Positions 23,746 through 44,460 of a stretch of 64,000 bases of DNA are shown in pieces. The stretch spans positions 162,726 to 226,725 of the forward strand of contig CALFWO010000005.1 of NCBI GenBank assembly GCA_937928045.1, read 5' to 3'. Each line of letters opens with the position of its first letter. Within the stretch, counting starts at the first letter, position 1. Under the pieces are notes generated by a model. It ran no database searches. It had not been told where the DNA came from and saw only the letters and a list, made by a program, of their open reading frames with translations. The stretch comes from an uncultured Saprospiraceae bacterium. Its GTDB lineage: Bacteria > Bacteroidota > Bacteroidia > Chitinophagales > Saprospiraceae. The position numbers and the translations under genes were made by a program.

Positions 23746-23819
23746 GCGGGGGTGGCGAAAATGGCAAACGCGTCTGATTTAGAATCAGATTTCTGAGGGT
23801 TCGAATCCCTCTCCCTGTA
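23746..23819 (+). tRNA. non-canonical tRNA-like gene: Leu-type anticodon loop (UU-UAG-AA) but class-I (short variable arm) architecture and G·U-rich acceptor; possible pseudo-tRNA
   Basis: Acceptor GCGGGGG/TCCCTGT pairs only with three G·U wobbles. D-arm has a 3-bp stem and 11-nt loop (class-II-like). Anticodon stem TCTGA/TCAGA with loop TTTAGAA. Variable region is only TTTCT. Canonical T-arm GAGGG-TTCGAAT-CCCTC. Confidence 0.4.
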
Positions 23820-23837
23820 CAATTTTAAATTCAATAT

Positions 23838-23911
23838 GTTGACTATAGTTTAATTGGCGAGAATACCTCAATGTGAATGAGGAGGATCGGGTTCGAATCC
23901 CGCTAGTCAAC
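23838..23911 (+). tRNA. tRNA-His (anticodon GTG) with encoded G-1 and genomic CCA
   Basis: 8-bp acceptor including G-1:C73 (G-TTGACTA / TAGTCAA-C). Anticodon stem CCTCA/TGAGG with loop ATGTGAA. T-loop TTCGAAT. CCA follows the discriminator. Confidence 0.75.
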
Positions 23912-23925
23912 CCATTTTTTAACCA

Positions 23926-26523
23926 TCACCTCAACAAAGTCAAATCTCCAAAAATAGTTCGTGTCGTTCCGTCTTTCAATTCTAATTCCAAACGATAGAT
24001 ATAAACTCCGGTATCTCCGATTTGACCATTGATTTTTCCATCCCAAAAATCTCCAAAGAAATCGGGATCAATATTTCCTTTAGAAAAGACATTGGCACCC
24101 CAGCGGTTGAATACATCTATTTTCTTAATATTAAATATTGCGCATCCCGGGAATATTTGAAAAACATCGTTTTGGCCATCATTGTTAGGACTAATCGCAC
24201 TAGGAGTATAAAGTAAATTTTCAGTATCTAGTAGAAATCTGACGGCAGAAGTATCTGTGCAGTTGTAATCATTGGCGACTACAAGTTTATAATAAGGATC
24301 AAAAGGGATCAATATTTCCGGTGTTGGGCAGTTGTAACAAGTTAAACCTCGCTGAGGAATCCATTCATAAATCACATTATTGTCGCCACTGATTTGTGGT
24401 TCTATTTTCATGGAATAACACATATCTGTTAGAATGGTATCTGGTAAAATTATCGTTGGAGAAGGAAGTAATTCTATATTTAGAAAATTGCTATCAGAAC
24501 ATATTCCATTATTCAATATGAGATTATATTGACCGGACTGCGCTGAGGACATCGAAGCCACATTCAATTCTCGATCAAAACTTTGATCTCCGTTTGGATC
24601 TCTCCAAATATAAGTTTTAATATCTCCATTGCCTTCTGCGATCAGATTCATTGGTTCTCTTTGGCAGTACTCTTTTTTTCCAATGATTTCAGTTTGAATA
24701 TCTGGGGCCACTTCTACTTCAATAGTTCTAATTTGCTCACAAAATCCTAAACTCGCAATCATGTTATAAGTGCCACTGTTTATTGGCTGAGCATTTAAAA
24801 GAGAAGTCTGAAAATCATTGGAACTTAAGCCGGGTCCATCCCATTCAATCGTAGAGCCTGGAGAAGCCTCGGCGATAAAAGTCAATGTTGAATATGCACA
24901 GACTGGACTATTACTCTCAGCTGATGCAGCCAACAATTCATTGGGTGCGACGACATCAATGGTTGTATCTTTCATTTCAAAGCTGCAGTTACTACTTTGG
25001 GGGGTAATTGCAAATAGGGTGTATTCTCCAGGAAGAATATTTTGAATTGAAAAAGAATTCGAATTGTCAATATCGACTATCCATGAATTTTCTTCGTAAT
25101 TTTCATTCCTTAGTTTGACTTCATAGGTTTCATTAGGAATAAAAACTGGAGAAGAAAGTTGTACAATGACGTCATCAACATCGAAGCAATTTGATGGTTG
25201 TGTTACATTAATTTGAAAGTCATTTAATATTTGTGCGTTGCCAATTACTGTCGTTGGATCTCCGATAGTTCCGCTTGTTCCAGGGTCGTCAGAAGGAAGT
25301 ATATTTCCAAATCTGTCTGGTAAATTTAGTAGAAAGGCTTGGTTGTCTACGAAATCTATTGGAATATCATTAACTAAAATATCAACATTGATGTTGATAA
25401 CGCCACCTATCGGAATTTGAAGATCCTCGATTTCTAAATTTGAGAATCCTATTCCAGTGCCTGCCCGAATATTTCCATCGAAATTGCCAGTAATATTTTC
25501 AATGATCATTCCTTGAGGAAAGCTATCTTGAAAAAAAACCTCGGAGATACCAAGTGGGAATCTATTTACAATGCTAAAGTTATAGGTGATCTTTGAATCA
25601 GTGCAAAGCACATCTTTTGGATTAACATTGCATTGGAAAGTTAGGGTGTATGGGCAAGAGCAACCATCACTGGTTAAGGCAGTAGGTCCGTTCCATGGGA
25701 AAACTGAAGAGGAACCAGTGAATTTGTCAATTTGAATTAATTTATTTTGTCTTAGAATCAATCCGGATTCGGTAGAACCGTAGCCGAAAAGATTCCCTTC
25801 TACATCGAAAAAAAGACTTCCGATTTTACGTACTTCGTTAGTTGATAATTTTCCTACGGGAGTAACCATTCCAAAATTTGGGTCATTGGGATTTATGTTA
25901 ATCCGATGTAAAAATCCTCTAGTTGATACCGGTTCTAAATCCGTGGTAATGTAGTTCCCTTGATAAGCATAAGCAAAATTTGAATTGGTAGGGTCAATGG
26001 CGAGATCTCCAAGTTTTGCTGTGAATGTTCCGCTATTAATAGATTCTGAATCCCAGAAAAGTTCTTCGCTTTTCACAAGTTCGAATGAGTTGATCACATC
26101 AAATATTAAAATTTGATCCAAGTTGTTTTCTATACATAAATATTGGCCGGTGGGTGTGCAATCCCCCGCAGTAATATCTGGTGAACTTACGACTGCTGGA
26201 TCTCCAATAATCTCAAAACTTTCGTCTGCTTTTAGTCGAACAATATTATTACTGATTTGATCTATTCCATAGATGTAGTTGTCGACTAAATTGTATCCTA
26301 AGGCATCAAATTGTCCTCCTTGAAAAGATTTTATGGGATCAAAAAAGAGTGTTCCAAATGGTCCAAAATTTACCTTGCTTGTTTGGTTAAATGCGGCATT
26401 TTGATTGTAAGATATGAGAAGATTGCCATCACAAGAAAATGTTTGACAAATTAGGCTTGTTGTATAAAGACTAAACACTAGAATATAAAAAACACATCTC
26501 ATCATTTTCACAAATCTGATCAC
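23926..26523 (-). CDS. large secreted protein (865 aa) with Ig-like/beta-sandwich repeats and T9SS type-B (gliding-motility-associated, CHU_C-like) C-terminal domain
   Basis: Signal peptide. C-terminal …YTPSAISPNNDGQNDVFQIF…VFNRWGANVF…WDGKINGQIGDTGVYIYRLEL…GDLTLLR matches the type-B sorting domain pattern (PNGDGxND…NRWGxxVF…WDG…GVYxY). Confidence 0.8.
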   Translation of the reverse strand: MIRFVKMMRCVFYILVFSLYTTSLICQTFSCDGNLLISYNQNAAFNQTSKVNFGPFGTLFFDPIKSFQGGQFDALGYNLVDNYIYGIDQISNNIVRLKADESFEIIGDPAVVSSPDITAGDCTPTGQYLCIENNLDQILIFDVINSFELVKSEELFWDSESINSGTFTAKLGDLAIDPTNSNFAYAYQGNYITTDLEPVSTRGFLHRININPNDPNFGMVTPVGKLSTNEVRKIGSLFFDVEGNLFGYGSTESGLILRQNKLIQIDKFTGSSSVFPWNGPTALTSDGCSCPYTLTFQCNVNPKDVLCTDSKITYNFSIVNRFPLGISEVFFQDSFPQGMIIENITGNFDGNIRAGTGIGFSNLEIEDLQIPIGGVININVDILVNDIPIDFVDNQAFLLNLPDRFGNILPSDDPGTSGTIGDPTTVIGNAQILNDFQINVTQPSNCFDVDDVIVQLSSPVFIPNETYEVKLRNENYEENSWIVDIDNSNSFSIQNILPGEYTLFAITPQSSNCSFEMKDTTIDVVAPNELLAASAESNSPVCAYSTLTFIAEASPGSTIEWDGPGLSSNDFQTSLLNAQPINSGTYNMIASLGFCEQIRTIEVEVAPDIQTEIIGKKEYCQREPMNLIAEGNGDIKTYIWRDPNGDQSFDRELNVASMSSAQSGQYNLILNNGICSDSNFLNIELLPSPTIILPDTILTDMCYSMKIEPQISGDNNVIYEWIPQRGLTCYNCPTPEILIPFDPYYKLVVANDYNCTDTSAVRFLLDTENLLYTPSAISPNNDGQNDVFQIFPGCAIFNIKKIDVFNRWGANVFSKGNIDPDFFGDFWDGKINGQIGDTGVYIYRLELELKDGTTRTIFGDLTLLR

Positions 26524-26623: not shown

Positions 26624-27847
26624 TTACTGAACTTTAAAGATTTGATCTCGGCCAAGTAATCTGCCTGAATCATCGAAAAGTCCAAGCCAATAATTTCCTA
26701 TCTCCAATAGACTTAGGTCAATGTAATTGCCTACTTTTTTACCTGAAGCGACCTTATGGCCCAAGTTGTTGTATATGATATATTCTGTAAAGTCTACTAA
26801 TCCTTCTATCGTTAATTGATCACGAACAGGATTTGGATAAAGATTTAACTGTTGTAATGATATTTCATTATTGCGAGTGGTGGCGATTTCATATTTCACT
26901 AATCCCATGGAACTTGCCATCCATAAATTTCCTGCCTGATCACATTTCATTTGCCTAATATTCGCAGTAGGAAGTTCTGAAACAAAAGGGAGAAAATGGG
27001 TAAATGAGTTTTCTTCAAAACTACTAAGTGCATTATATTCAAAACCACCAATCCATATTTTATCATTGTTATCAATAGCGATCTTTGAAGGACTATTAGA
27101 GTGAATATCCGAATTATCCATGTTGTAGATATCAAAGTTATCGATACCATCAAAATGTAAGAGACCTTGGTCCTCTTGGACCAACCAAACATCTCCATTA
27201 CCATCTGTAACAAGGTCAAGAATATCTCCAAAAGGGATGTTGGTATTATTAGGATCAAACTTAGTGATGATATTGTCTTTGATTTTATAAAGTGCTGAAT
27301 TTCCACCAACCCAGAGTGTTTGATTTTGATGATCAAAGATTGACGATTTTGAAAATTTAACTTCGCTCAAATTATTCCAGCTCGTTCCGTCAAAGGATTG
27401 CATTTCATTCCCTGAGCCAAGACCGACATAAAGAATATCATTTTGATTGTCTTTTGCCATGGTTAGAACTGCATCAACTGTCATATCAGAATTCTGACTG
27501 GTCCATGTTTCAAAACTTTCATTGTTATAATCAATACGACTCAGTCCTCCATAGCTACAAACTTCAACAATCCCATCATTGGCGACCATATCAGTGGCGC
27601 GTCCCTGTAAGAGCCCCAGATCATTAGCATTAAGAACGGTCCAGTCTTCATTTTCAAGGAAAGCTATTGTCTCTCCAGTGGAGGTTGCATTTGTGCCAAC
27701 CCAAATAAGCCCAGTACTTTGATCTATGGCTAAAGCTTGTAAAGAATTATCCATATCAGGATTATTGTAATTGAAAAATTCTTGTGCATTAATAACTGAG
27801 CTAAAAGCTACTAGGAAAATTGCAACTAGTGTAAAAGTTGATTTCAT
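26624..27847 (-). CDS. secreted beta-propeller-like protein (two-component-regulator-propeller-type repeats) with T9SS type-A C-terminal domain
   Basis: Signal peptide. Repeated …LWVGT/LWVGG…, ILYVGL, IWIGG, LWMAS strands. C-terminal LNLYPNPVRDQLTIEG…GNYWLGLF tail. Confidence 0.7.
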   Translation of the reverse strand: MKSTFTLVAIFLVAFSSVINAQEFFNYNNPDMDNSLQALAIDQSTGLIWVGTNATSTGETIAFLENEDWTVLNANDLGLLQGRATDMVANDGIVEVCSYGGLSRIDYNNESFETWTSQNSDMTVDAVLTMAKDNQNDILYVGLGSGNEMQSFDGTSWNNLSEVKFSKSSIFDHQNQTLWVGGNSALYKIKDNIITKFDPNNTNIPFGDILDLVTDGNGDVWLVQEDQGLLHFDGIDNFDIYNMDNSDIHSNSPSKIAIDNNDKIWIGGFEYNALSSFEENSFTHFLPFVSELPTANIRQMKCDQAGNLWMASSMGLVKYEIATTRNNEISLQQLNLYPNPVRDQLTIEGLVDFTEYIIYNNLGHKVASGKKVGNYIDLSLLEIGNYWLGLFDDSGRLLGRDQIFKVQ

Positions 27848-32549: not shown

Positions 32550-32894
32550 GATTCGTATGTGATTTATAGGTTTAAAAAAAAACTTGTTTCACTTTTTGCC
32601 TGGATATTATTTCCCTTTTAGGGCAATATTTTGTCAGGCATTTAAAAAAAAATTATCGAGCCAAAATTCAAATTCTGACACCTGTGGAATTTCTTTTAAG
32701 TCAGTTGATTTGAATTTTCAAATTGAATTTGAGCCTCAGGAACCTATTCAATAAAAATTTTCAAAAACAACATGGCGGTATCCAAAAAATTCAGACAATT
32801 GTTGAATTTCAAAAATTGCAAGCAATTTCATTTTAGAAAATTGGCTCGACAAACTGAGATCATTTTTGTGAGTGATCTGCTCGTTAAATGGAGT

Positions 32895-33035
32895 GGAAGT
32901 CCATTGCTCTACCAACTGAGCTACATCGTCTCTACGATGACGGGAATCGAACCCGCGCTTTCGAATTCCTACGTTCTAACCGGACTGAACTAAATGCTCT
33001 TTGAGCATTGGAGGAGTCGAACCTCCGACCTTAGG
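32895..33035 (-). other. block of scrambled tRNA-like modules (tRNA-Gly(TCC)-like 5' portion, Asp-like D-arm, two canonical T-arms) that do not assemble into canonical tRNAs
   Basis: Minus strand reads GGAGG-TTCGACT-CCTCC | AATGCTC-aaa-GAGCATT | TA-GTTC-AGTCCGGTTA-GAAC | …| GCGGG-TTCGATT-CCCGT | CATCGT-agag-ACGATG | TA-GCTC-AGTTGGTA-GAGC-A-ATGGA-CTTCCAC-TCCAT… Each 3'-acceptor-like strand is immediately hairpinned onto the following 5'-acceptor strand. The Gly-like unit lacks a downstream T-arm and the Asp-like unit lacks an anticodon arm. Confidence 0.4.
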
Positions 33036-33405: not shown

Positions 33406-33951
33406 TCAGTAGGATTTCAAAAGCAGCTTAGTGGGCTCCCCCTTTTTCGGAAGAGCCCCTTTCTTCGCTTTCTTGCACTTCTGCTTCAATCGTTTCACCT
33501 CGCCATTGAAATAATCGTAATCAAATTGGCCTGCAGAAAGTAAACGTCCTCTTTTGTTTTCTTTGATGGCTTCTTTGATTTTTCCCTTGGCTTCCAGCAC
33601 TGTTGCTTTTCGCTTGATCATAACCAATTTCGGCATTCCAAGTTTGGTCATTCCTTTATCGATTAGTGAATTTGCTTTGTCCAGTTCTCCCATCCATATT
33701 AACAATAAACTATAGAATTTATAGGTGTCAACATAGTTAGGATCTTCAACTAAAGCTTGTTCAAAGCAGTGCTTGGCTTCTGAGAATCTTTTCAATTTTT
33801 CCATGAGTAAACGACCCATCAGGCAATTAGATGCTGGATGCATTTCATCGTAACTCAAAGCATAATTCAAAGACTCTACAGTTTGTTCTACATCATAGGC
33901 ATAGTTATCCGATGCTTTCAAGAAGTACTGATCTGCTAAAGTTAAACTCAT
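33406..33951 (-). CDS. tetratricopeptide-repeat protein
   Basis: 181 aa with TPR-like helices (…AKHCFEQALVEDPNYVDTYKFYSLLLIWMGELDKANSLIDKG…). Basic C-terminal tail. Confidence 0.5.
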   Translation of the reverse strand: MSLTLADQYFLKASDNYAYDVEQTVESLNYALSYDEMHPASNCLMGRLLMEKLKRFSEAKHCFEQALVEDPNYVDTYKFYSLLLIWMGELDKANSLIDKGMTKLGMPKLVMIKRKATVLEAKGKIKEAIKENKRGRLLSAGQFDYDYFNGEVKRLKQKCKKAKKGALPKKGEPTKLLLKSY

Positions 33952-34920
33952 GATTAGTGAATTAAATGGTTTTAAAAAATGGTTTTATTAAGACATGCAA
34001 CTCCCGCTTAATGAAAGTCAATTCATTTAATGAGCACAGACAAATCAATTCTTGTCAGTTCAAGACATAGTTTGACTGTTCAACATGGAGCATCATGTTG
34101 GTTTATATTTATGAAATAAATTTTAAGAAAAGCTGAGTTAGAAGCTAGTTATACTCAGCGAAAGGAAGTTGTATTTTCGCTTCGTACTTCTAAAGTTTCA
34201 AATTCCGCATTTCTCAATTTTACAATTTATCCACATGGGCAATTGATTAATTTAAAAATTTGTAATAATGTATTCCTGCAGTATTCAGCGACAATACATT
34301 GATTAATTCGTGCAAAAGCACTATAAATAAAGACAACTGAGAGAAAAAGTGTAGATTCTTGTAGTTGTCTTTGACAACCACAAGTAAAAAGAGTGGTTAT
34401 CTGAAATGAAAGACGGTTCTAGGATTTCCTAGTTCCACTTGGAAACATCTTTGGTCTTGATTCGACCATAATGCTGTGTTATATGTATATATATTAATCA
34501 TTTCAATGACAAAGTTATGACAGTTTATTGGATATGCAAATAGATCGAGGAAATTTTATTATTTATTTTCTGATTAGGAATTGATTTCTTCTTTTAATGC
34601 GCTAATGTATTTTTTGAAATAAACTATTAGGATTCGATTTAATTCGAATACGGAATTCATTTTTTGAATGATGTATTGAAAGCTTTTTGAATTTCATTTC
34701 AATTGAGGGTGCCATCATCTTTAAAATCATCAAAAGCTGTTGATATTATTTAATTCTTTAATGTAATTTCAATCCCACTTTAAATAGGAGGTTTAGCATA
34801 TTATGAAATCAATAAATAAGTGATTAATGTTAAGTTAATTGCCTAGTTCTGGCATTAATATTGAAGTGTTCCGGATGTATGTATATCATACTTTTCGCCT
34901 TTCTCCCATAAAATGTTCTG

Positions 34921-37900
34921 ATGGACTCAAACAAATTCTTTGAAGGATGTAAAGTCTTTATGACTTTGTTGATATTCCTATGTCTTAGCATCATCAAAGT
35001 TGAGTGTCAATCAATCGAAAACGGTTGTAATGCAGCAAGTTTTGGTGTTGATGCTGATCAATATGCGAATAGTAATTCATTTGGTCAAAATGCTAACGAT
35101 AATAATTATTCGGATGATTGGTTTTTTAATCCAGCAGTGAGTAATGGTTTGGGTATTGGAGTTATTGACGTATCAAATGCCGAGAATCTTCAGCAATCTT
35201 TGCAATCAGGTGATAATCTTTCATTAATCTACGACATGTCGATTCCATTCAATACTGTACATCAAGGCGTACGGCTATTGGATGCTATATATGGACGAGA
35301 CTTTTACGGAGGTACACAGAATACAGACTACACCTCTTATATTCAAGCCAGTAAAAATGGGGAGGATCCAGCCATTTGGGATACGGGACCTGCTAATGTC
35401 ACTCCCAAGAATGATCTTATTGATTGCTTTGCTCACTTAAGACGGGATGGAATCAATGGTGATGATGACCTATGGTTATTTGGAGGATTTTCTAGAATCT
35501 CAAATATTGGAAGTAGTTATTTGGATATGGAACTGTATTCGAAAGATATACAATATACTCCCTCCTCTGGTTTTACTTCTGCTGGAAATGATGAAGGTCA
35601 TACTGCTTGGACATTTGATTCAAACGGAAATTTGACTAGAACAGGAGATATTGTTGTTTCCTATAATTTTTCTACAAACGGGGCACCAGAAATTGAATTA
35701 AGAATTTGGGTGGCACAATCGGATTTTCAGAATACTTCACCGACTACTTTTAGTTTTGGTTCAGAATTCGACGGAGGTACGAATAACTCTAATTTTGGTT
35801 ATGCAGATATCCTTCCTCCAAATAACGGAATTTATTCTTGTGGTTTAGGAAATCCTTCAACCACATTTGCCCCGCCTTGGGGGACATTAAACTCTAACGG
35901 AAACTATAGCTACAACTATGAGGGAGGTCAATTTGCAGAATTCGGATTGAATTTAAATGCCTTTGGAATTGATCCATCAGTAGTTCTGTCTTCCGGTGCT
36001 GGTATTTCTTGTGATATTCCTTTTAGCGCAGTTCTTTTTAAAGCTAGGGCTTCGCAATCATTCACCGCTCAGTTAAAAGATTTTGCTGGGCCATATCCTT
36101 TTGAAATCCCATTAACCATTCCTTCCGACATTGTAGGAGATACCATTGATTGCATTAATGCCGCAGTAACCCTTGGTCCAGAAATTGTGATTCCAGACGC
36201 ATCTTATATCTGGTCAACTAGCGATGGAAATATTATAGGGACAACTGATAGTGCATATATTTTAGTAGATCAGCCGGGTACCTATTCATTGGATGCATCA
36301 TCTGCTCCGGGATGTCTGGTAAACACTTCTTCTTTTTATGTTCCGGAATTATATAACTATCCTACAGCAGATATACAAGCAGATACTATTTTTGATTGTG
36401 GAGTCTCTGCTAGTCTAACTGCATGGCCGGCGGGGCATGTCTATGAATGGTCTGGCCCATTTAATTTTCAATCTGATCAGCAACAAATTAGTGTTCAAGA
36501 TGAAGGAATGTATATAGTTTCCGTAATGGATCCAATTTCACAATGTATGGCTCTGGATTCCATATATCTTCCCGGTGGACCTTGTCAAAATATAGATTTA
36601 TCAGAATTGCCTGGAGACGGAAATCAAGTGATTATAATTGATAATGAGCCACCGATGGTAAATTGGCCCGATGATATTACGCTTTCTTGTTTAGATGATT
36701 TTCTAAATCTTTCATTAACAGGAACGCTTGGTCAAATAACAGATAATTGTCCTGAAAATTTACCTGCTCCTTTTTATTTGGATTTGTCTTCAAACGGAAT
36801 TTGTTTAGGCGAAGTTGTTTATAATAGACTTTGGTATGTTACTGATTTCTGCGGAAACTTAGCTTCCCATTCGCAGGTAATAACCTTGGTAGATACTATT
36901 CCTCCTTTTTTCATTGCACCAAATGATGTGACAATTGATTGTTCGATAGATGTAAATGATCTAGGTGATCTTGGAGATGCTACAGGAGAGTATGATGATT
37001 GTGATTTTTCTATCGGAGAAGCATTTTATCAAGATAGTATTGCTAGTGGAGTTTCTTGTACAGGAAATGATGTAATATATAGAGTTTGGACATTAGTTGA
37101 CGGTTGTGGAAATGAAAATATACAAATTCAAACTATTAATTTTGCAGATAGTGAGGCCCCAACATTTACTGTTCCAAATAATATTACTATTTCTTGTTCT
37201 GATGACGCGAATGATTTAGGGTTGACTGGAACTATTGAGGACACTTTGGATAACTGCAGTAATACACTTTTGACTATTAATTATTGGGATCAGATTGTTG
37301 TAGATTCGAATTGTGTATCAAATTATCTGATCTATAGGAGTTGGTTGGTTACAGATGGTTGCGGGAATGATAGCCTAGCTATTCAAGAAATAACAATCGA
37401 AGATATAGCGGCTCCTACATTTACTGCGCCAGAAGATATTACAGTTGCTTGTGATGTCGCTGAAAGTGATTTAATAACTTTAGGAGATGTCATCAATGAA
37501 TATGATGATTGTACTGCTAGTATTGCCAATGCTACTTACACAGATGTTATCATTGCTAGTGGTCCATGTCCTTCAACAAAAACGATAGAACGTACTTGGT
37601 CTCTTTCGGATGATTGTGGAAATATTACTTCTATTATTCAATTGATTGAATTTGAAGATACCAGCAATCCAACGTTTACAGTACCTGAAGACGTTACCAT
37701 AGAGTGTCATGAAGATCCTGCTAATCTATTATTGACTGGGAATGTATTTGATGAAGCAGATAATTGTAGTGAAAATGGATTAGAAGCCACTTATATTGAC
37801 GACGTTACTTCCGGAATACCTTGCAATGGAAGTACTATTATTCAAAGGACCTGGACACTGGTTGATGATTGTGGAAATACCTCATCTGCAATTCAGCAAA

Positions 37901-40900
37901 TAACCTTGGAAGATAATACTCCGCCATCTTTTTCTATGGTGGCTGTAGATCCACAAGTTTCTTGTGATGTCGTAATTCCTACACCTCAGATTGGTGTTGA
38001 TCTTTTTATCACGGATGCTTGCGATACTAGCTTGAACATTTCCTTTTATGAAGAACAGACTAATATTACATGCCCCGATGTTTATGTTTTAAGAAGGGTA
38101 TGGATTGCTGAAGATAATTGCGGGAATATTGATTCATTGGTGCAAGAAATAATGGTTGAGGATTCGGGTGATCCAATTATTTTAGTCTTTCCTCCTGATT
38201 TGACAGTTTCTTGTGATTCAATAATTCCTCCAGGAGGAGCTGTTGTAGATGATAACTGTAGTTCGTCTATTACTGTAAACGTCAATGACTCTATAGTCGA
38301 TGGATCATGTGATTTTAATTATGCTATAATTAGAATTTGGTCATGGGAAGATGATTGTGGAAATGTTAATACAGCAGAACAAACAATTACAGTTGTTGAT
38401 GAAAATAGCCCTAATTTTATTCCACCTTCAGATACTTTGATTGGATGTGATGCTAACTTGTCAGATATAAATCAAACTGGATCTATTTTAAATCCCATAG
38501 ACAATTGTGATCCAACTGTTTTAAATACAACTTATCGCGATTCCGTTTTGAATGGATATCCATGCGAAGGTTCCCAAAGAATAATTAGGATATGGATGGT
38601 GTCGGACACCTGTGGAAATGAAAATGAACATGTACAGGTTATCGACATGATTGATACTGTTTCTCCTACTTGGACATTACCTTCAGATATAACAATTACC
38701 TGTGAAACCGACTTGGCAGATCTTTCAATAACAGGTAACGTAGTTTCTATTGATGACAATTGTGATACGAGTCTTGATTTGCCGACCTATACAGATTCTA
38801 TTGTTCAAGATACATCTTGTTTAAATAGTTCAATTATTTATAGAAACTGGTCTGTTTCAGACGCATGTGGAAACACGATTTCAGGAATTCAAACAATCGT
38901 AATCTCAGATACAATTGCTCCATCATTTACTGTTCCTTCAGACATTACACTAGATTGTTCTGAAAATGTTAATGATTTAAATTTAACAGGATTTGTCATT
39001 GATGAAAGTGATAATTGTCAATCTATAATCGGAGATCCAATCTATATGGACTCAGTTGTTGTTGATCAATCTTGCAGCGGGAATTCGGTAATATATAGAA
39101 ATTGGATTTTAGAGGATGCTTGTGGAAATTCCATTAGACAAGTTCAACTGATTGTAATTCAGGATACCATTGCTCCCACTTTCATAACTCCCAATGACGT
39201 TACATTAGACTGCTCTGAAGATATAACAGACTTGTCAATTACTGGAAGTGTTACTGCAGTTCTTGATAATTGTTCTCCATTTTCTATTGTTTCTTCTCAT
39301 AGAGATAGTCTTGTTGCAAATGCAGGATGCGAAGGTCAATTCACTGTTATTCGGATTTGGACAGTACAGGATATGTGCGGGAATAGTAGTGAAGCGTGGC
39401 AACATATTTATCTGGTTGACAATACTCCTCCATTTTTCGTAGTACCCCCGGATATTACCCTTGATTGTGATGCCGACGTGTCGAATGTAACGCTTACCGG
39501 TTTTCCAGATAGTTCCTTGGTGGATAATTGTTCTTCATTAAATTTGAATATAAGTTATGTTGATTTAATTCGAGATTTAGGAAAATGTGGAGCAACTAGA
39601 AATGTAGTTAGAACTTGGCTAGCAGTAGACGATTGTGGAAATCAATTCTCTGCCATTCAAAACATTTCTTTAATTGATACAATTGCTCCAGTATTTATTG
39701 CACCACCGACGATTGTTATTTCATGTACTGATGATCCTAGTGATTTAACAATAACTGGCGAGGTAGATACTATGCAGATTGCAGAAGCTTGTGGTATTAA
39801 CGATGTCACTATTTATTATGTGGATTCTATTAGTCTGCTGAATAATTGCAGCTCGAACTATGAACTTTTGAGAACATGGTATTTAATCGATGATTGTGAT
39901 AATCAATCATCTGCTGTTCAAGTCATTTCCATTGAAGACCAAATTGGCCCAACTTTTTCTGCACCTGATGATATTACAATTGATTGTGATTTGGATATTA
40001 ATGAATTGATTATTACCGGAGTTCCAGATTCTATTCAAGATGAATGTTCTATTAATTTTTCAACACCGACTTATAGAGATAGTATTGTTGACCAGGGTAG
40101 TTGTATCGTTGAAGTAATTTATAGGACTTGGGAAGTTGTAGATGAATGTGGAAATATTTCCAGAGAAATTCAAACCATAACACTTCAGGATACAATTCAA
40201 CCTGTGTTTTTCTCACCTGCTGACACAACGCTTCATTGTTCACAAGATCCATTAGATTTTTCAATTACTGGACTTCCTTTCATGCCGGATGATAATTGTG
40301 ATAATAATCTAGGACAGATTATGTTTAGCGATAGTTTAGTTGTAAGTGATTCCTGCGCAATACATCGTGCGCTATATAGAACATGGTCTCTTTCTGATCA
40401 ATGTAACAATCTTGCATCTTATTTACAGATCATTTATTTGTTGGATACCCTTGGGCCAAGTTTTACAGTGCCTCAAGATGTGACATTGAATTGTGAAGAA
40501 AATTTAGATAATTTGTCCATTACTGGAAATGTGGCCAATGAATTTTTTAACTGCGAAAATCAAGTTGGATTAACTACTTACCAAGATAGTTTAGTAGTCT
40601 CAAGTAATTGTAACGAAATAATTGTACATCGACTTTGGAACTTATCAAATAATTGCGGCTGGGATACTAGCCAAGTTCAATTAATAACTTTGATAGATAC
40701 ATTGGCTCCTACATTTATTAACCAACCCGCTGATTTGACTTTATCATGCGGTCAAGCACTTCCAGTATTCACTCCAAATGTCATAGATGCTTGTTCATCA
40801 AATCCTATCATATTATCAAGTTTGGACACTTTGGCAGGTGATTGTTTTAATGAAATAAATATTGTAAGAACATGGATGGCCACAGACAGTTGTGAAAATG

Positions 40901-43377
40901 CTGACAGCATTCAACAGCAAATTCTTGTCGAGGGATGTGCTCCAGATCTTGAATTGGTTATGCCAAGTTCTTTGACAGAATGTTTTGGCGCTGAAGTTAC
41001 AATGCAAGTTAATATACAGGCTCAAGTCTCGTCAATATTTTTTCAATGGCAAGTATTTTTAAACGGACAATGGACTAACATAGATGGAGCTGATCAGGCA
41101 ATATTCACAATTGCCTCAGCCGAAACAAGTGATGAAGGAGTCTATAGATGTATTGCAGCTGGACAATTATTGGACATTGGTAATGAGGACTGTCAGATAA
41201 TTAGTCCAGAAATTGATCTCTCAATAACATCTCTACCAATTCCGGTTATCTCATACTTAACATTTTGTGAAGGAGATACTATAATTATTAATAATTTAAT
41301 AATTACCACTCCTGGAACTTTTTTGGATACAATAAATATTCAAAATGGTTGTGATAGTCTAATACAGTTGGAGATTGAAATGCTCTTACCAACTTCAAGC
41401 CAAGAATTTATTAATATTTGTGAAGGAGATAGTGTAAATTATAATGGCAATTGGTATTCTCAACCTACTAGTTTTTATGACACACTAACGAATGTATCTG
41501 GTTGCGATAGTATACATGCGATCAACATAGAAGTTGGACAATATACAACTGAGGAAAGATTGGTCCAAGTCTGTTTAGGAGATAGTTTATTTGCCGGTGG
41601 AGCATGGCATTCAGATCCGGGAGTATTTTTAGATACTATTAACGGAAGTAGTGGTTGTGATACGATACTTTCTACAACACTAAGTTTTGTAAATTATATT
41701 GAAAATTCGATAACCTCTAATTTGTGTTCTGGCGATACAATAATTTGGAACGGAAATCTTATTTATTCTGCAGGTGTTTGGAGGGATACAATATTAAACG
41801 CACTAGGGTGTGATACAATCTATATTCATAATGTTGTTGAAATTCCAATAGTCAACACAAACGAAAATTACATTTTATGTGAAGGCGATTCTGTTTTTGT
41901 TGCAGGAAATTGGCGATATGAAAATGGCTTTTTTGTAGAAACGTTTTCGGGCAGTTCTAGATGTGACAGCATAGTCAATAGTACTGTTGTTTTTAACCCA
42001 TCATATAGTTTTCAAGATACCGTTTTATTGTGCTTTGGAGATTCTATAGCGATAGATGGACAAATCATTACTACCGCAGGTAGCTATGCGAATTCTATGA
42101 CTTCAGTTAATGGATGTGATAGTATTATTAATTATGTTGTTGAATTTAATTTGCTAGATACTATTGAATTAGTAGAGCAAATTTGTTCCGGACAATTTTT
42201 TAATTTTAATGGGACTGAACTTTCTATTGCTGGAGACTATCAAGAGATCTTTCAAAATCAGTACGGATGCGATAGTATTGTTAATTTGACTCTTGTAGTA
42301 GAGGATGATATCGAAGTTGAATTAGAATATTTGATTTGTCCTGGAGATTCGGTTGAAATAAATGGATCTTGGTATTTTGCTAATTCAGATCTGTTTTTTG
42401 CAGATCTTGCTCAAAATGGAGGCTGCGATAGCCTGACGAATGTATCTGTTATTCTGGCTGAGGTTTATCAAGATACAAGTAGATATCAGATATGTCAAGG
42501 AGATAGTATTTCACTTTTTGGCAACTTTTATGCGGTACCAACTGAAATTATTGAAACTTCTCAGTCTGTTGATGGATGTGATAGTAACATTGTTCATATT
42601 TTAGAAATAATAGATGTTACACAATTAATTGTAGATGACGCTTATATCTGTAGAGGTGAAGGCGTAGAACTTTTTGTTGAAGGTGCAGTGGAAGTAGAAT
42701 GGTCCCCTTCGACAGGATTAAGTTGTACAAATTGTCTAAATCCAATCGCTTCACCCAATCAATCTACAACTTATACGGTATCATCCAGTTCATGTTTAGG
42801 GGAATCAGTTGAACAAGAAATAACTGTATATGTATATGAATTGCCAACCGTAAGTATTTTGGGCAATGCAAATGTTACCCCTGGTGATACACTGGAATTG
42901 ACTTATGAGGTATCCGACACCACTGCGCAATTAATGTGGTTAGATGCGCAAGGAGATACACTTTGTAATGATAATTGCCCAGATACACTTTTTGTTATTG
43001 CAGACTACAATTCAATATATACTATAGCAGCAATCGATGAAGATGGATGTAGAGCTGAGGATGAAATAGTAGTTCGAATTAATGATAAATGTGAAGATGC
43101 CAAATTGTTCTTTCCAAATTTTATTACGCCAAATGGAGACGGTAAAAACGATGAATATGTTGTGACTTACGAAGATGTAAAGTCTATTGCATTGTTAAGG
43201 ATATTTAATAGATGGGGAGAATTGATTTTTGAGACTTATGATGTAGACAATGACCACTGGGATGGAACATTCAGAGGTGTACCTGTAAACGTTGGGGTTT
43301 ATGTTTATTATTTGGAAGGGGTATGTCTTAATAATGTAGATTTTATAGAAAAAGGAAACATAACGATTATAAGATAA
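34921..43377 (+). CDS. giant SprB-like cell-surface adhesin (2818 aa): ~19 tandem HYR-type ~95-aa domains, ~12 tandem ~38-aa CxGDS…GCDS modules, Ig-like domain, T9SS type-B C-terminal domain
   Basis: Signal peptide. Repeated unit DTxxPxFxxPxDxTxxCxxxxxDLxxTGxxxxxDNCxx…YxDSxxxxxCxGxxxIxRxWxxxDxCGNxxxxxQxIxxxD recurring from ~aa 570-2050. Then repeats such as ICEGDSVNYNGNWYSQPTSFYDTLTNVSGCDSIHAINIEV. C-terminal FFPNFITPNGDGKNDEYVV…IFNRWGELIFE…WDGTFRGVPVNVGVYVYYLEG tail. Confidence 0.85.
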   Translation: MDSNKFFEGCKVFMTLLIFLCLSIIKVECQSIENGCNAASFGVDADQYANSNSFGQNANDNNYSDDWFFNPAVSNGLGIGVIDVSNAENLQQSLQSGDNLSLIYDMSIPFNTVHQGVRLLDAIYGRDFYGGTQNTDYTSYIQASKNGEDPAIWDTGPANVTPKNDLIDCFAHLRRDGINGDDDLWLFGGFSRISNIGSSYLDMELYSKDIQYTPSSGFTSAGNDEGHTAWTFDSNGNLTRTGDIVVSYNFSTNGAPEIELRIWVAQSDFQNTSPTTFSFGSEFDGGTNNSNFGYADILPPNNGIYSCGLGNPSTTFAPPWGTLNSNGNYSYNYEGGQFAEFGLNLNAFGIDPSVVLSSGAGISCDIPFSAVLFKARASQSFTAQLKDFAGPYPFEIPLTIPSDIVGDTIDCINAAVTLGPEIVIPDASYIWSTSDGNIIGTTDSAYILVDQPGTYSLDASSAPGCLVNTSSFYVPELYNYPTADIQADTIFDCGVSASLTAWPAGHVYEWSGPFNFQSDQQQISVQDEGMYIVSVMDPISQCMALDSIYLPGGPCQNIDLSELPGDGNQVIIIDNEPPMVNWPDDITLSCLDDFLNLSLTGTLGQITDNCPENLPAPFYLDLSSNGICLGEVVYNRLWYVTDFCGNLASHSQVITLVDTIPPFFIAPNDVTIDCSIDVNDLGDLGDATGEYDDCDFSIGEAFYQDSIASGVSCTGNDVIYRVWTLVDGCGNENIQIQTINFADSEAPTFTVPNNITISCSDDANDLGLTGTIEDTLDNCSNTLLTINYWDQIVVDSNCVSNYLIYRSWLVTDGCGNDSLAIQEITIEDIAAPTFTAPEDITVACDVAESDLITLGDVINEYDDCTASIANATYTDVIIASGPCPSTKTIERTWSLSDDCGNITSIIQLIEFEDTSNPTFTVPEDVTIECHEDPANLLLTGNVFDEADNCSENGLEATYIDDVTSGIPCNGSTIIQRTWTLVDDCGNTSSAIQQITLEDNTPPSFSMVAVDPQVSCDVVIPTPQIGVDLFITDACDTSLNISFYEEQTNITCPDVYVLRRVWIAEDNCGNIDSLVQEIMVEDSGDPIILVFPPDLTVSCDSIIPPGGAVVDDNCSSSITVNVNDSIVDGSCDFNYAIIRIWSWEDDCGNVNTAEQTITVVDENSPNFIPPSDTLIGCDANLSDINQTGSILNPIDNCDPTVLNTTYRDSVLNGYPCEGSQRIIRIWMVSDTCGNENEHVQVIDMIDTVSPTWTLPSDITITCETDLADLSITGNVVSIDDNCDTSLDLPTYTDSIVQDTSCLNSSIIYRNWSVSDACGNTISGIQTIVISDTIAPSFTVPSDITLDCSENVNDLNLTGFVIDESDNCQSIIGDPIYMDSVVVDQSCSGNSVIYRNWILEDACGNSIRQVQLIVIQDTIAPTFITPNDVTLDCSEDITDLSITGSVTAVLDNCSPFSIVSSHRDSLVANAGCEGQFTVIRIWTVQDMCGNSSEAWQHIYLVDNTPPFFVVPPDITLDCDADVSNVTLTGFPDSSLVDNCSSLNLNISYVDLIRDLGKCGATRNVVRTWLAVDDCGNQFSAIQNISLIDTIAPVFIAPPTIVISCTDDPSDLTITGEVDTMQIAEACGINDVTIYYVDSISLLNNCSSNYELLRTWYLIDDCDNQSSAVQVISIEDQIGPTFSAPDDITIDCDLDINELIITGVPDSIQDECSINFSTPTYRDSIVDQGSCIVEVIYRTWEVVDECGNISREIQTITLQDTIQPVFFSPADTTLHCSQDPLDFSITGLPFMPDDNCDNNLGQIMFSDSLVVSDSCAIHRALYRTWSLSDQCNNLASYLQIIYLLDTLGPSFTVPQDVTLNCEENLDNLSITGNVANEFFNCENQVGLTTYQDSLVVSSNCNEIIVHRLWNLSNNCGWDTSQVQLITLIDTLAPTFINQPADLTLSCGQALPVFTPNVIDACSSNPIILSSLDTLAGDCFNEINIVRTWMATDSCENADSIQQQILVEGCAPDLELVMPSSLTECFGAEVTMQVNIQAQVSSIFFQWQVFLNGQWTNIDGADQAIFTIASAETSDEGVYRCIAAGQLLDIGNEDCQIISPEIDLSITSLPIPVISYLTFCEGDTIIINNLIITTPGTFLDTINIQNGCDSLIQLEIEMLLPTSSQEFINICEGDSVNYNGNWYSQPTSFYDTLTNVSGCDSIHAINIEVGQYTTEERLVQVCLGDSLFAGGAWHSDPGVFLDTINGSSGCDTILSTTLSFVNYIENSITSNLCSGDTIIWNGNLIYSAGVWRDTILNALGCDTIYIHNVVEIPIVNTNENYILCEGDSVFVAGNWRYENGFFVETFSGSSRCDSIVNSTVVFNPSYSFQDTVLLCFGDSIAIDGQIITTAGSYANSMTSVNGCDSIINYVVEFNLLDTIELVEQICSGQFFNFNGTELSIAGDYQEIFQNQYGCDSIVNLTLVVEDDIEVELEYLICPGDSVEINGSWYFANSDLFFADLAQNGGCDSLTNVSVILAEVYQDTSRYQICQGDSISLFGNFYAVPTEIIETSQSVDGCDSNIVHILEIIDVTQLIVDDAYICRGEGVELFVEGAVEVEWSPSTGLSCTNCLNPIASPNQSTTYTVSSSSCLGESVEQEITVYVYELPTVSILGNANVTPGDTLELTYEVSDTTAQLMWLDAQGDTLCNDNCPDTLFVIADYNSIYTIAAIDEDGCRAEDEIVVRINDKCEDAKLFFPNFITPNGDGKNDEYVVTYEDVKSIALLRIFNRWGELIFETYDVDNDHWDGTFRGVPVNVGVYVYYLEGVCLNNVDFIEKGNITIIR

Positions 43378-43413
43378 TTTTGAAAAAACGTACCTCCCAA
43401 TACGAATTTTGCC

Positions 43414-44460
43414 ATGAAAAAATATTTAGTATTATTTGCAGTGATTCAATTAGTAATTACTCTGCAAGCGCAGGATGTTCATTTGTCGCATATTCATGCT
43501 TCACCGATTCATTTGAATCCGGCGATGACAGGTGTATTTCAAGATGGATATTTAAGATTGATCGCTAACTCAAGGTTGCAATGGGAGACATTTACAAAAG
43601 GTTATAAAACTGTAATGGCTTCTGCTGATTTGAAGTTAGTGAATTTAAATAATAGTTCCATTCTTAGTGGTGGTATTCAAGTTGCTTCTGACAAAGCTGG
43701 AGATTTGAATTTTTCTACAAATACAGCCTCAATTAATTTTTCAGTTCAAAAATCTTTTGATCGTCAAAGTAAGAATGTAGTTTCTTTTGGGTTTCAAGGA
43801 GCATTGATTAATCATAGAATAGATTTTTCAAAAATGATTGGTTATGAAATTGAGACTGAACTAATAACTGATGCACCTGAAACCATTAATGCCTGGGACG
43901 TTAGCACTGGGGTGACGTGGTTTCATTCTTTTTACCCTAAGAATCATTTTTATATTGGAGCAGCTCTGTTTCATTTGAATCAGCCATCCATTAGCTTCTT
44001 CGGAGATTTAGATCTTTACGAATTACCTTATGATGAAGTGGGAAAAATACTCTATAGAAAATTTATAATTCATGGAGGAGGAAAAATTGGTATTCATAAA
44101 AATATTAGTCTTTTACCAAGTTTTTTAATTGCAGATCAGGGACCACATCGAGAAATGAAAATGGGTACATTTTTTAAATATGAAAACAGAAGATCCAGAA
44201 AAGATAATGATTATGCAGTGTATTTGGGAGGTTGGGTCAGATGGTATTTAGAAAAAGATTTGATTGGAACTGATGCTATAGATCTTTCACTGAGAATTGA
44301 TCATGAATCAACCATTTATACTTTTTCGTTTGATGTTAATATTTCTAAACTGACAAGAGTTAGCCAAGGTTTGGGTGGCCCAGAACTTTCAGTGATTAAA
44401 ATATTTGACAAGAAGAATACCAAGCGTAAAAAATTCAAAGTAAAATGTCCAGCACTCTAA
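43414..44460 (+). CDS. T9SS outer-membrane protein, PorP/SprF family (cognate partner of the upstream type-B cargo)
   Basis: Signal peptide. N-terminal SHIHASPIHLNPAMTGVFQDGYLRLIANSRLQWETF parallels the PorP/SprF consensus (…QYMFNPLxLNPAYAG…RxQW). Beta-barrel-like remainder. Starts 37 nt after the type-B CTD adhesin. Confidence 0.8.
   Translation: MKKYLVLFAVIQLVITLQAQDVHLSHIHASPIHLNPAMTGVFQDGYLRLIANSRLQWETFTKGYKTVMASADLKLVNLNNSSILSGGIQVASDKAGDLNFSTNTASINFSVQKSFDRQSKNVVSFGFQGALINHRIDFSKMIGYEIETELITDAPETINAWDVSTGVTWFHSFYPKNHFYIGAALFHLNQPSISFFGDLDLYELPYDEVGKILYRKFIIHGGGKIGIHKNISLLPSFLIADQGPHREMKMGTFFKYENRRSRKDNDYAVYLGGWVRWYLEKDLIGTDAIDLSLRIDHESTIYTFSFDVNISKLTRVSQGLGGPELSVIKIFDKKNTKRKKFKVKCPAL

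What the first reader, a model, noticed from the sequence alone, without database searches (positions are those of the whole stretch)
34921..44460. SprB-like giant adhesin with HYR-domain array plus cognate PorP/SprF
A 2818-aa protein ends in a type-B T9SS sorting domain. 37 nt downstream lies a PorP/SprF-family outer-membrane gene, the arrangement required for SprB secretion in gliding Bacteroidetes. The body is unusual. About 19 tandem HYR-type domains carry conserved Cys/DNC/DxCGN positions. A second array follows with ~12 short CxGDS…GCDS modules. Neither array is the classical SprB-repeat composition. The gene is preceded by a ~1-kb AT-rich non-coding region.
Basis: partly seen in the sequence, partly recalled or inferred. 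Interest (0 to 1): 0.7.

Follow-up and report, generated by a model that had tools for sequence, protein, structure and literature searches.

The report
Giant T9SS surface adhesin with carrier
A Saprospiraceae-type bacterium encodes a 2818-residue filament-like surface protein next to the outer-membrane carrier that should export and hold it. The pairing is a known kind, but two of its building blocks are still undescribed domains and the carrier has a single, strictly conserved tail cysteine.

Summary
The 2818-aa protein ends in a type-B T9SS sorting domain (TIGR04131 49.5 bits, cutoff 35; CHU_C). 36 nt downstream lies a PorP/SprF-family gene (TIGR03519 132 bits, cutoff 90.55).

The repeat counts were wrong:
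- There are 17 HYR_4C modules of about 85 aa, not about 19 of 95 aa.
- There are 9 two-cysteine modules of 51 aa, not about 12 of 38 aa.

The body is not unusual in its own lineage. In 53 Saprospiraceae loci the same carrier subfamily follows a type-B cargo, and 52 of these carry 5-59 copies of the 51-aa module. 23 also have HYR_4C arrays. A colinear ortholog has the same 17+9 layout.

It is not an SprB ortholog. It has no SprB repeats, no sprC/sprD, and its carrier has no Cys-x-Cys motif.

Three things go beyond the finding:
- A conserved roughly 370-aa N-terminal head has no Pfam or NCBIfam model and no close solved fold.
- The 51-aa module is widespread but has no Pfam match.
- The carrier's only cysteine sits in an invariant C-terminal Cys-Pro motif. 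This suggests, without proving, disulfide coupling to the GldK track.

Verdict: new member of a known kind, modest interest.

The parts
33952..34920 (.). 969-nt AT-rich intergenic region between the divergent TPR gene (33406..33951, -) and the adhesin gene. It presumably holds both promoters.
   Evidence: No ORF longer than 44 aa. GC is 29.3% against 35.9% for the window. No Rfam match at E<=1. Promoter and terminator pattern counts are at shuffle level. No DNA conserved with the upstream regions of orthologs L004, L006, L026 and L002.
34921..43377 (+). Gene for the 2818-aa T9SS type-B cargo, a giant surface adhesin. It has 111 Cys, 405 Asp+Glu and only 63 Lys+Arg.
   Evidence: The same product is called in an independent assembly. 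Ortholog L004 is colinear at 51.4% identity over 2824 columns.
34921..35010 (+). Signal-peptide-like N-terminus (aa 1-30; hydrophobic TLLIFLCLSII, then ...VEC/Q). Met14 (nt 34960) is an alternative start.
   Evidence: Direct reading of the translation. The AF2 model has a helix at aa 4-22. Homologs begin with similar leaders ending ..AQ. No signal-peptide predictor was available.
35011..36120 (+). Conserved N-terminal 'head' domain (aa ~31-400). It is an all-beta domain with no family model and is the presumed distal ligand-binding tip.
36121..36648 (+). Two Ig-like linker modules (aa 401-576), each with the pattern Y.W....G.I....I.V..PGTY.L....GC.
   Evidence: The motif is conserved in the family alignment A1 beyond the head and seen in the sequence. 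Pfam gives no significant hit.
36649..40944 (+). Array of 17 HYR_4C (HYR-like, four-cysteine) modules, aa 577-2008, period about 85 aa. Consensus: P.F..P.D.T..C..D..DL..TG......DNC........Y.DS......C.....I.R.W...D.CGN..S..Q.I...DT.
   Evidence: Pfam PF23237, 3.3e-35 for the whole protein. A self-built HMM finds 17 copies with i-Evalues of 1e-20 to 1e-35. 11 of 17 modules hit PF23237 singly. Invariant residues include 4 Cys plus R, W, Q and I. No solved homolog by sequence.
40945..41241 (+). Single Ig-like module (aa 2009-2107), weakly I-set/Ig_3-like.
   Evidence: Pfam Ig_3 E 0.0014 and I-set E 0.0068, both below their cutoffs.
41242..42624 (+). Array of 9 two-cysteine modules of 51 aa each (aa 2108-2568). 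Consensus: iC.GDS....G......G.Y.DTL....GCDSI....L.V. Predicted to be compact small beta modules forming the cell-proximal stalk.
42625..43092 (+). Cys-containing beta-rich linker region before the CTD (aa 2569-2724).
   Evidence: Sequence reading only. No Pfam hit.
43093..43374 (+). Type-B T9SS C-terminal sorting domain (aa 2725-2818), containing FFPNFITPNGDGKNDEY...IFNRWGELIF...WDG...GVYVYY.
   Evidence: CHU_C PF13585 at 8.5e-15 (2.8e-16 on the isolated segment). TIGR04131 at 3.6e-13, 49.5 bits against a cutoff of 35, covering aa 2731-2801.
43378..43413 (+). 36-nt spacer between cargo and carrier genes. It has no terminator-like hairpin, so co-transcription is likely.
   Evidence: The ortholog L004 has a 39-nt spacer.
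43414..44460 (+). PorP/SprF-family outer-membrane carrier (348 aa), cognate to the cargo.
   Evidence: PF11751 at 3e-28. TIGR03519 at 2.9e-38, 132 bits against a cutoff of 90.55. Its subfamily is found almost only in Saprospiraceae MAGs, with several paralogs per genome.
44407..44457 (+). Basic C-terminal tail DKKNTKRKKFKVKCPAL. It contains the protein's only cysteine, Cys345 (codon 44446-44448), in the motif K-V-x-C-P-x-[FLM].
   Evidence: All 120 close homologs end with this motif. 114 of 120 have exactly one Cys in the mature protein. 129 of the best 150 representatives at 50% clustering keep a Cys-Pro within the last few residues of the protein, and none has C-x-C.

Best explanation
This is a two-gene type IX secretion (T9SS) cargo/carrier cassette.

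The 2818-aa protein should be exported to the periplasm by Sec, fold there with many disulfides, and pass through the T9SS translocon by means of its type-B C-terminal domain. It should then stay bound to its dedicated PorP/SprF-like beta-barrel, encoded 36 nt downstream, which anchors it in the outer membrane.

The product would be a long, acidic, disulfide-stapled filament, roughly 100 nm by my estimate from domain counts. From the cell outward it would run:
1. CTD bound to the carrier.
2. Stalk of nine 51-aa beta modules.
3. Seventeen HYR_4C Ig-like modules.
4. Two Ig-like modules.
5. A conserved roughly 370-aa beta-sandwich head that most likely binds the ligand, possibly a glycan.

Favoured sub-model, about 0.4: the carrier's single, invariant tail cysteine (Cys345) forms a disulfide with the GldK/PorK track, as SprF Cys326 does in Flavobacterium johnsoniae. 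The adhesin would then be dragged along the cell surface as a gliding adhesin functionally analogous to SprB.

What is shown and what is inferred:
- Shown by homology: the domain identities, the pairing, and their conservation across loci.
- Inferred from work on F. johnsoniae and P. gingivalis: the export route and the anchoring to the carrier.
- Speculative: the ligand, the filament length and the track coupling.
For: - Type-B CTD and PorP/SprF models both score above curated cutoffs.
- No terminator lies in the 36-nt spacer.
- In 53 of 62 related Saprospiraceae loci, the frame directly upstream of the carrier gene ends in a homologous CTD. Ortholog L004 keeps the head, 17 HYR_4C, 9 modules, CTD, a 39-nt spacer and the carrier, colinear at 51% identity. 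The neighbouring genes differ, so the pair is the conserved unit.
- Literature: type-B substrates need and stay bound to their own PorP/SprF carrier (PMC9143113, PMC12618676, PMC12635249).
- Head as tip module: it is shuffled onto different stalks and CTD types, is modelled confidently, and weakly resembles CBM9, Sas6 and DOMON-like binding domains.
- For the mobile sub-model: the carrier's only Cys is invariant, 3-5 residues from the C-terminus, in 120 of 120 close homologs and 129 of 150 distant representatives. A sole cysteine cannot form an intramolecular disulfide. SprF and PorG use tail cysteines to bond GldK/PorK, and P. gingivalis PorG does so with a single Cys (PMC12635249).
- No PorE/OmpA-like gene lies beside the carrier gene here or in the 80 related loci. 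Gorasia et al. postulate this arrangement for mobile type-B adhesins (PMC9143113).
Against: - Nothing here is experimental.
- The genome outside the window could not be checked for gldJ/K/L/M/N, sprA or porV.
- It is not an SprB ortholog: no SprB repeats, no sprC/sprD upstream, less than half SprB's length, and the carrier lacks the twin Cys-x-Cys that both matter for SprF function.
- Some type-B cargo/carrier pairs are static (Fjoh_3952/3951, PMC12618676).
- The Cys-Pro tail is so widespread in the family that it may not separate mobile from static carriers. Five Cys-less carriers sit in similar loci, without an adjacent PorE-like gene.
- I could not align the tail to F. johnsoniae SprF, so the equivalence of Cys345 and SprF Cys326 is unverified.
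Confidence: 0.75

Rival explanations
1. It is a static surface appendage. The same cassette would build a filament held at fixed positions for attachment to particles, algae, filamentous bacteria or prey, like Aureispira GhpA grappling hooks or F. johnsoniae Fjoh_3952. It would not be moved by the gliding track.
For: - Not all type-B cargos are mobile. Fjoh_3952 gives only static foci (PMC12618676).
- A member of the same class, Aureispira, uses a giant T9SS cargo with a PorP homolog as a static heptameric hook (bioRxiv 10.1101/2024.01.29.577165).
- Genomes carry several paralogous cassettes with very different stalk lengths, from 5 to 59 modules. That fits a repertoire of attachment fibres better than one motility adhesin.
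- The carrier lacks the SprF Cys-x-Cys motif.
Against: - No PorE/OmpA-like partner gene lies next to the carrier, unlike ghpABC and unlike the PorP-PorE arrangement postulated for non-mobile cargos (PMC9143113).
- The invariant sole tail cysteine needs an intermolecular partner or some other role.
- No sequence match to any solved structure, and no GhpA-like hit in the fold searches.
Confidence: 0.35
2. It is a released or catalytic cargo. The protein would be secreted into the medium or act as a surface enzyme or nutrient-capture protein rather than an adhesin, and the head domain would be catalytic.
For: - The head has invariant Asp, Glu, His and Arg positions.
- The window encodes several enzymatic T9SS cargos: a reprolysin-like peptidase and a haem peroxidase.
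Against: - Those enzymes carry type-A CTDs. Type-B cargos studied so far remain bound to their carriers (PMC9143113, PMC12635249).
- About 85% of this protein is repeated Ig-like modules with no enzyme family hit.
- The head's nearest folds are binding modules, not enzymes.
Confidence: 0.07
3. It is an artefact or a decaying gene. The long ORF would come from mis-assembled repeats or would be a non-functional remnant.
For: Related long-read loci show frameshifted fragments of such genes (L002), and giant repeat genes are prone to assembly errors.
Against: - The repeats are only 27-36% identical at protein level, with no DNA tandem repeat, so collapse is unlikely.
- An independent assembly calls the same 2818-aa product.
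- The ortholog is colinear with identical module numbers.
- All structural cysteines are intact.
Confidence: 0.02

Closest known systems
Flavobacterium johnsoniae SprB / SprF (gliding adhesin and its carrier)
   Same: - Giant repetitive Ig-like surface protein ending in a type-B (TIGR04131) CTD.
- The PorP/SprF-family carrier gene lies immediately downstream on the same strand.
- No PorE-like gene is adjacent.
- The carrier has a cysteine a few residues from its C-terminus.
   Different: - No SprB repeats (PF13573). The body is HYR_4C plus a 51-aa two-Cys module.
- 2818 aa against 6497 aa.
- No sprC/sprD upstream; the upstream neighbour is a divergent TPR gene.
- The carrier tail has one Cys in a Cys-Pro motif instead of the Cys324-x-Cys326 pair.
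- The carrier subfamily is Saprospiraceae-specific.
Aureispira GhpA / GhpB / GhpC grappling hook (Saprospiria)
   Same: - Same bacterial class.
- Giant T9SS cargo made of successive Ig-like domains with disulfides.
- A distinct distal head.
- A PorP homolog is encoded downstream.
   Different: - GhpA is 5898 aa, forms heptamers, and has a PorE homolog (GhpC) after the PorP homolog.
- Here there is no PorE-like gene and no detectable sequence similarity to any solved structure.
- The oligomeric state is unknown.
Other F. johnsoniae type-B pairs (Fjoh_4750 mobile; Fjoh_3952/Fjoh_3951 static) and P. gingivalis PG1035-PorP-PorE
   Same: A cognate type-B CTD and PorP-like carrier act as a self-contained secretion-and-anchoring unit.
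   Different: Those pairs show that the class includes both mobile and static members. Which applies here cannot be read from the sequence with present knowledge.
Pfam HYR_4C (PF23237) and the eukaryotic HYR (hyalin repeat) Ig-like adhesion domains
   Same: The seventeen roughly 85-aa modules carry the four conserved cysteines of the family, and 11 of 17 match the model individually.
   Different: This is an exceptionally long uninterrupted array used as the shaft of a T9SS filament. Six modules fall below the family threshold when scanned alone.
CBM9 / DOMON-like beta-sandwich binding modules (1i82, 4jpq, Sas6 7uwu)
   Different: - Only 7-11% identity.
- The head is about twice as large.
- Foldseek finds no significant PDB match.
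- No ligand-binding residues could be mapped.

Membership tests
T9SS type-B cargo | A type-B sorting domain (TIGR04131 / CHU_C) at the extreme C-terminus | tested here: met
   TIGR04131 scores 49.5 bits against a cutoff of 35, over aa 2731-2801 of 2818. PF13585 scores 55.1 bits against a cutoff of 27.
T9SS type-B cargo | An N-terminal Sec signal peptide | tested here: inconclusive
   A hydrophobic leader (aa 14-27) followed by ..VEC/Q is read from the sequence. The AF2 model has a helix at aa 4-22, and homologs have similar leaders. No signal-peptide predictor was available.
T9SS type-B cargo | A dedicated PorP/SprF-like carrier gene is genetically linked | tested here: met
   The carrier gene lies 36 nt downstream on the same strand. 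The linkage is conserved in 53 of 62 related loci.
PorP/SprF carrier family | Full-length match to TIGR03519 / PF11751 above the curated cutoff | tested here: met
   132 bits against a cutoff of 90.55, model positions 1-288 of 292. PF11751 scores 99.6 bits against 22.3.
SprB proper (gliding adhesin of Flavobacterium) | A body built of SprB repeats (PF13573) | tested here: not met
   No PF13573 hit in the whole protein at E<=0.01 or, at E<=10, in five segments that exclude the HYR_4C array. hhalign of the 51-aa module against SprB repeats gives probability 19%.
SprB proper (gliding adhesin of Flavobacterium) | Part of an sprC-sprD-sprB-sprF operon | tested here: not met
   Upstream lie a 969-nt non-coding gap and a divergent TPR gene. 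There is no same-strand upstream gene.
SprB proper (gliding adhesin of Flavobacterium) | Helical movement along the cell surface, and a requirement for gliding | not testable with these tools
   This needs live-cell tracking and mutants.
SprF proper | A periplasmic C-tail with the invariant Cys-Xaa-Cys motif that bonds GldK Cys343 (PMC12635249) | tested here: not met
   The tail is ...KFKVKCPAL, with a single Cys and no C-x-C. None of 120 close homologs or 150 distant representatives has C-x-C in the tail.
SprF proper | A reactive cysteine a few residues from the C-terminus (the equivalent of SprF Cys326) | tested here: inconclusive
   An invariant sole Cys lies 3-5 residues from the C-terminus. 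It could not be aligned to F. johnsoniae SprF because that sequence was not retrievable.
GhpA-type grappling hook | A ghpA-ghpB(PorP)-ghpC(PorE/OmpA-like) gene cluster | tested here: not met
   The gene after the carrier is DUF2461. No OmpA-like ORF is adjacent on the same strand in the window or in 80 related loci.
GhpA-type grappling hook | Sequence or fold similarity to GhpA | tested here: inconclusive
HYR_4C (PF23237) | A module of about 73-85 aa with four conserved cysteines that matches the Pfam model | tested here: met
   The whole protein scores 120.5 bits against a cutoff of 27. 11 of 17 modules match singly. All 17 share the four Cys.

The most novel reading that the evidence does not exclude
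The head / HYR_4C / 51-aa-module filaments riding on single-cysteine (Cys-Pro-x-Phe/Leu) PorP-like carriers would be the gliding adhesins of Saprospiraceae, replacing SprB. The Cys-Pro tail would be the general signature by which much of the PorP/SprF family is covalently hooked to the GldK/PorK track. The disulfide-coupling mechanism found in 2025 for SprF and PorG would then extend, with one cysteine instead of two, to a large clade of carriers: 129 of the 150 best cluster representatives, out of 4194 relatives at E<=1e-3. The untyped N-terminal head would be a new ligand-binding domain family that sets what these cells stick to.
Probability: 0.25. Interest if true: 0.55.

Novelty: new member of a known kind. 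Interest (0 to 1): 0.3.

Why it matters
On its own the locus is another T9SS type-B adhesin with its carrier. It is useful for annotation but not surprising. Three by-products are worth more.

1. **Two unmodelled building blocks.** The roughly 370-aa head and the 51-aa two-cysteine module match no Pfam family here (the head also none in NCBIfam), so thousands of Bacteroidota surface proteins remain largely unannotated.

2. **A natural series of filaments.** Within Saprospiraceae the stalk varies from 5 to 59 modules, with or without HYR_4C arrays. Such a series could be used to study how filament length and tip domains relate to attachment, gliding or predation. Saprospiraceae are abundant in activated sludge and on marine particles.

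3. **A directly testable prediction.** The invariant sole tail cysteine of the carrier bears on the recently proposed disulfide coupling of outer-membrane carriers to the moving GldK track. A carrier-GldK disulfide adduct would be the test.

Tried and rejected
- **RNA element or conserved regulator in the 969-nt upstream region.** Rfam finds no match there at E<=1. Promoter and terminator patterns are at chance level. BLASTN against ortholog upstream regions finds nothing below E 0.1. Ortholog L004 has only about 300 nt upstream. Treated as an ordinary divergent promoter region.
- **The 51-aa module as a shortened SprB repeat.** hhalign gives probability 19%, with only the G.Y...D..GC hairpin aligning. 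Not supported.
- **Solved-structure homologs by sequence.** None for the whole protein, the HYR modules, the 51-aa modules or the carrier profile.
- **Using the tail cysteine or PorE adjacency to separate mobile from static carriers.** Five Cys-less carriers also follow type-B cargos and also lack PorE neighbours, so no dichotomy emerged at n=5.
- **Naming cultivated organisms for distant Cys-Pro carriers.** Cluster look-up returned only MAG or unnamed entries.
- **Defence-system models.** PADLOC gives no hit on the head or the carrier.
- **DNA tandem repeats.** None found.
- **F. johnsoniae SprF tail sequence.** Sought in PMC12635249, but it appears only in a figure.
- **Further copies in the window.** The head, HYR and 51-aa HMMs hit only this gene. 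The CTD HMM also hits the 865-aa protein at 23926..26523.


Full report
**1. What is in the sequence**

ORF 34921..43377 encodes 2818 aa and ORF 43414..44460 encodes 348 aa. They are separated by 36 nt (43378..43413) with no terminator-like hairpin. An independent public assembly (Logan ERR9287620) calls the same 2818-aa and 348-aa products.

Upstream, 33952..34920 is 969 nt with no ORF longer than 44 aa. It is 29.3% GC against 35.9% for the window, and it is bounded by a divergent TPR gene.

**2.

The last roughly 90 residues match CHU_C (PF13585, 8.5e-15) and the NCBIfam type-B sorting domain TIGR04131 (49.5 bits, cutoff 35). The downstream protein matches PorP_SprF (PF11751, 3e-28) and TIGR03519 (132 bits, cutoff 90.55) over its full length. 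Neither refuting condition occurred.

**3. Anatomy of the giant protein**

With HMMs built from the protein itself, the first array has 17 modules, not about 19. They are 79-87 aa long, not 95, and span aa 577-2008. Each has four invariant cysteines plus invariant R, W, Q and I, and mean pairwise identity is 36%. Pfam calls the array HYR_4C (PF23237, 3.3e-35), and 11 of the 17 modules match singly.

The second array has 9 modules, not about 12. They are 51-52 aa long, not 38, and span aa 2108-2568. The consensus is iC.GDS....G......G.Y.DTL....GCDSI....L.V, with two invariant cysteines and mean identity 27%.

Neither array is repeated at DNA level, so both are old and diverged, and assembly collapse is unlikely.

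The other regions are:
- a signal-peptide-like leader (aa 1-30);
- a conserved head (aa ~31-400);
- two Ig-like modules (aa 401-576);
- one weakly I-set-like module (aa 2009-2107);
- a Cys-containing linker (aa 2569-2724);
- the CTD (aa 2725-2818).

The protein has 111 cysteines and is very acidic, with 405 D+E against 63 K+R.

**4. The two unmodelled parts**

*The head.* It matches no NCBIfam family, and its only Pfam hit at E<=10 is an insignificant Kelch_4 match (E 0.046, below cutoff). It nevertheless has 148 homologs at E<=1e-3. In these it precedes SprB repeats plus PKD_6, HYR_4C, or cadherin/Big_9 arrays, or sits directly on a type-A CTD in complete proteins of about 650 aa. It therefore behaves as a shuffled tip module.

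**5. Comparative context**

A scan of one genome per species with a profile of the carrier found 138 relatives. Nearly all of the best 80 come from Saprospiraceae MAGs, and several genomes carry more than one. The best is 62% identical, so the window's own species is not among them at this locus.

In 62 loci a long same-strand frame ends just upstream of the carrier gene. In 53 of these it ends in a homolog of the window's type-B CTD. In 52 of the 53, 5 to 59 copies of the 51-aa module lie next to the CTD. 23 loci also have 2-24 HYR_4C modules further towards the N-terminus. The head is found in four upstream frames: the three where the start of the gene is within reach (L004, L006, L026) and L039, whose frame runs off the locus edge.

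L004 (Saprospiraceae bacterium SS_bin_23) is a true ortholog. It has 2820 aa, the head, 17 HYR_4C modules, 9 small modules and the CTD, followed by a 39-nt spacer and a 350-aa carrier. It is colinear at 51.4% identity over 2824 columns, while its flanking genes differ.

So the conserved unit is the two-gene cassette. Module number is held constant between orthologs but varies widely between paralogs.

**6. The carrier's tail**

The carrier has a single cysteine, Cys345, in a basic C-terminal tail: DKKNTKRKKFKVKCPAL. All 120 close homologs end in K-[VI]-x-C-P-x-[FLM], and 114 of 120 have exactly one cysteine in the mature protein.

Among the best 150 cluster representatives, drawn from 4194 relatives at E<=1e-3 and reaching down to about 30% identity, 129 keep a Cys-Pro within the last few residues of the protein (the classifier scanned the last 14). 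None has Cys-x-Cys.

Liu et al. 2025 (PMC12635249) showed three things:
- F. johnsoniae SprF uses a tail Cys324-x-Cys326 motif.
- Cys326 forms a disulfide with GldK Cys343, and this couples the adhesin to the moving track.
- P. gingivalis PorG does the same with a single cysteine.

A sole, invariant cysteine cannot form an intramolecular disulfide. An intermolecular partner such as GldK is therefore an attractive inference, but I could not align the tail with SprF itself. The motif is also so widespread that it may not separate mobile from static carriers.

**7. Mobile or static?**

The literature shows both outcomes for type-B pairs. SprB and Fjoh_4750 move helically, while Fjoh_3952 is static (PMC12618676). 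Aureispira GhpA, in the same class, is a static heptameric hook encoded with PorP and PorE homologs (bioRxiv 10.1101/2024.01.29.577165).

Gorasia et al. (PMC9143113) postulate that mobile cargos are anchored by a PorP-like protein alone and static ones by PorP-PorE. Here the gene after the carrier is DUF2461. No OmpA-like ORF lies adjacent on the same strand in the window or in 80 related loci. This favours the mobile class under that postulate.

Against it, five Cys-less carriers also lack PorE neighbours, so this criterion did not discriminate in my small sample. I put the mobile sub-model at about 0.4 and the static one at about 0.35.

**8. Comparison with known systems**

Membership in the class 'T9SS type-B cargo plus cognate PorP/SprF carrier' is met on every testable feature. 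Membership in SprB/SprF proper is not: there are no SprB repeats, no sprC/sprD, less than half the length, and no twin-cysteine tail. Membership in the GhpABC type is not met either, since there is no PorE gene.

The locus is best filed as a new member of a known kind. The more useful leads are the two unmodelled domains and the tail-cysteine prediction.

**9. Limits**

- Only the 64-kb window and fetched loci could be read, so the presence of gld/spr core genes is untested.
- No signal-peptide predictor or AFDB search was available.
- Many database hits appear truncated at about 800-900 aa, so full architectures of most head-bearing homologs are unknown.
- The filament length of about 100 nm is my rough estimate from domain counts, not a measurement.

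Noticed in passing
window 32847-32981 (-): In the 850-nt non-coding gap between the SPFH gene and the TPR gene there is a Y RNA-like (YrlA, RF02553) match at 39.6 bits, below the gathering score of 69 (E 1.2e-6). It overlaps a borderline tRNA-like match at 29.9 bits (cutoff 29) that ARAGORN does not call. No Ro/Rsr (TROVE) gene was seen among the neighbours scanned.
   Followed up: partly
window 23926-26523 (-): A second type-B CTD protein (865 aa, DUF6923 plus CHU_C) has no PorP/SprF gene beside it. Immediately downstream is a five-tRNA cluster instead. It is an 'orphan' type-B cargo of the kind shown in F. johnsoniae to share a distant carrier.
   Followed up: partly
window 23501-23914 (+): A tight cluster of five tRNA genes (Asp-GTC, Glu-TTC, Gln-TTG, Leu-TAG, His-GTG) within 414 nt.
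   Followed up: no
window 56617-60163 (+): An animal-type haem peroxidase (An_peroxidase, 6.5e-142) carries a type-A T9SS sorting tail. It sits directly after a di-haem cytochrome c peroxidase gene. A secreted peroxidase pair is an uncommon T9SS cargo.
   Followed up: no
window 7640-10165 (-), 16738-22578 (-), 26624-27847 (-): The window is dense in type-A T9SS cargos. These are a reprolysin-like metallopeptidase, a 1946-aa Big_9/cadherin/P-domain protein, and a Reg_prop beta-propeller protein.
   Followed up: no
carrier homologs P0404, P0417, P0419, P0427, P0430, P0460, P0501, P0505: A subset of more distant PorP-like carriers has a second cysteine in or just after the last predicted beta-strand (...IY.GC...), 10-14 residues before the terminal Cys-Pro (...CP.F). 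This could play the donor-disulfide role that Cys324 plays in SprF.
   Followed up: no
loci L021, L029, L048 (upstream frames): Some paralogous cargos are almost pure arrays of the 51-aa module, with 52-59 copies in about 3000-3250 aa and no HYR_4C detected in the part available.
   Followed up: partly
locus L002 (10001-18761): The closest database relative of the head (P0002, 49% identity) lies on a 5x-coverage long-read contig. There the giant gene is broken into several called fragments, ending in a CHU_C fragment followed by a PorP_SprF gene. These are probably sequencing frameshifts rather than a pseudogene.
   Followed up: partly
protein database hits: Most hits to the head and to the 51-aa array are 650-920 aa long and end abruptly without a CTD, even on megabase contigs (for example P0027). 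Giant proteins seem to be represented by truncated or fragmentary entries, so architecture counts from these tables are lower bounds.
   Followed up: no
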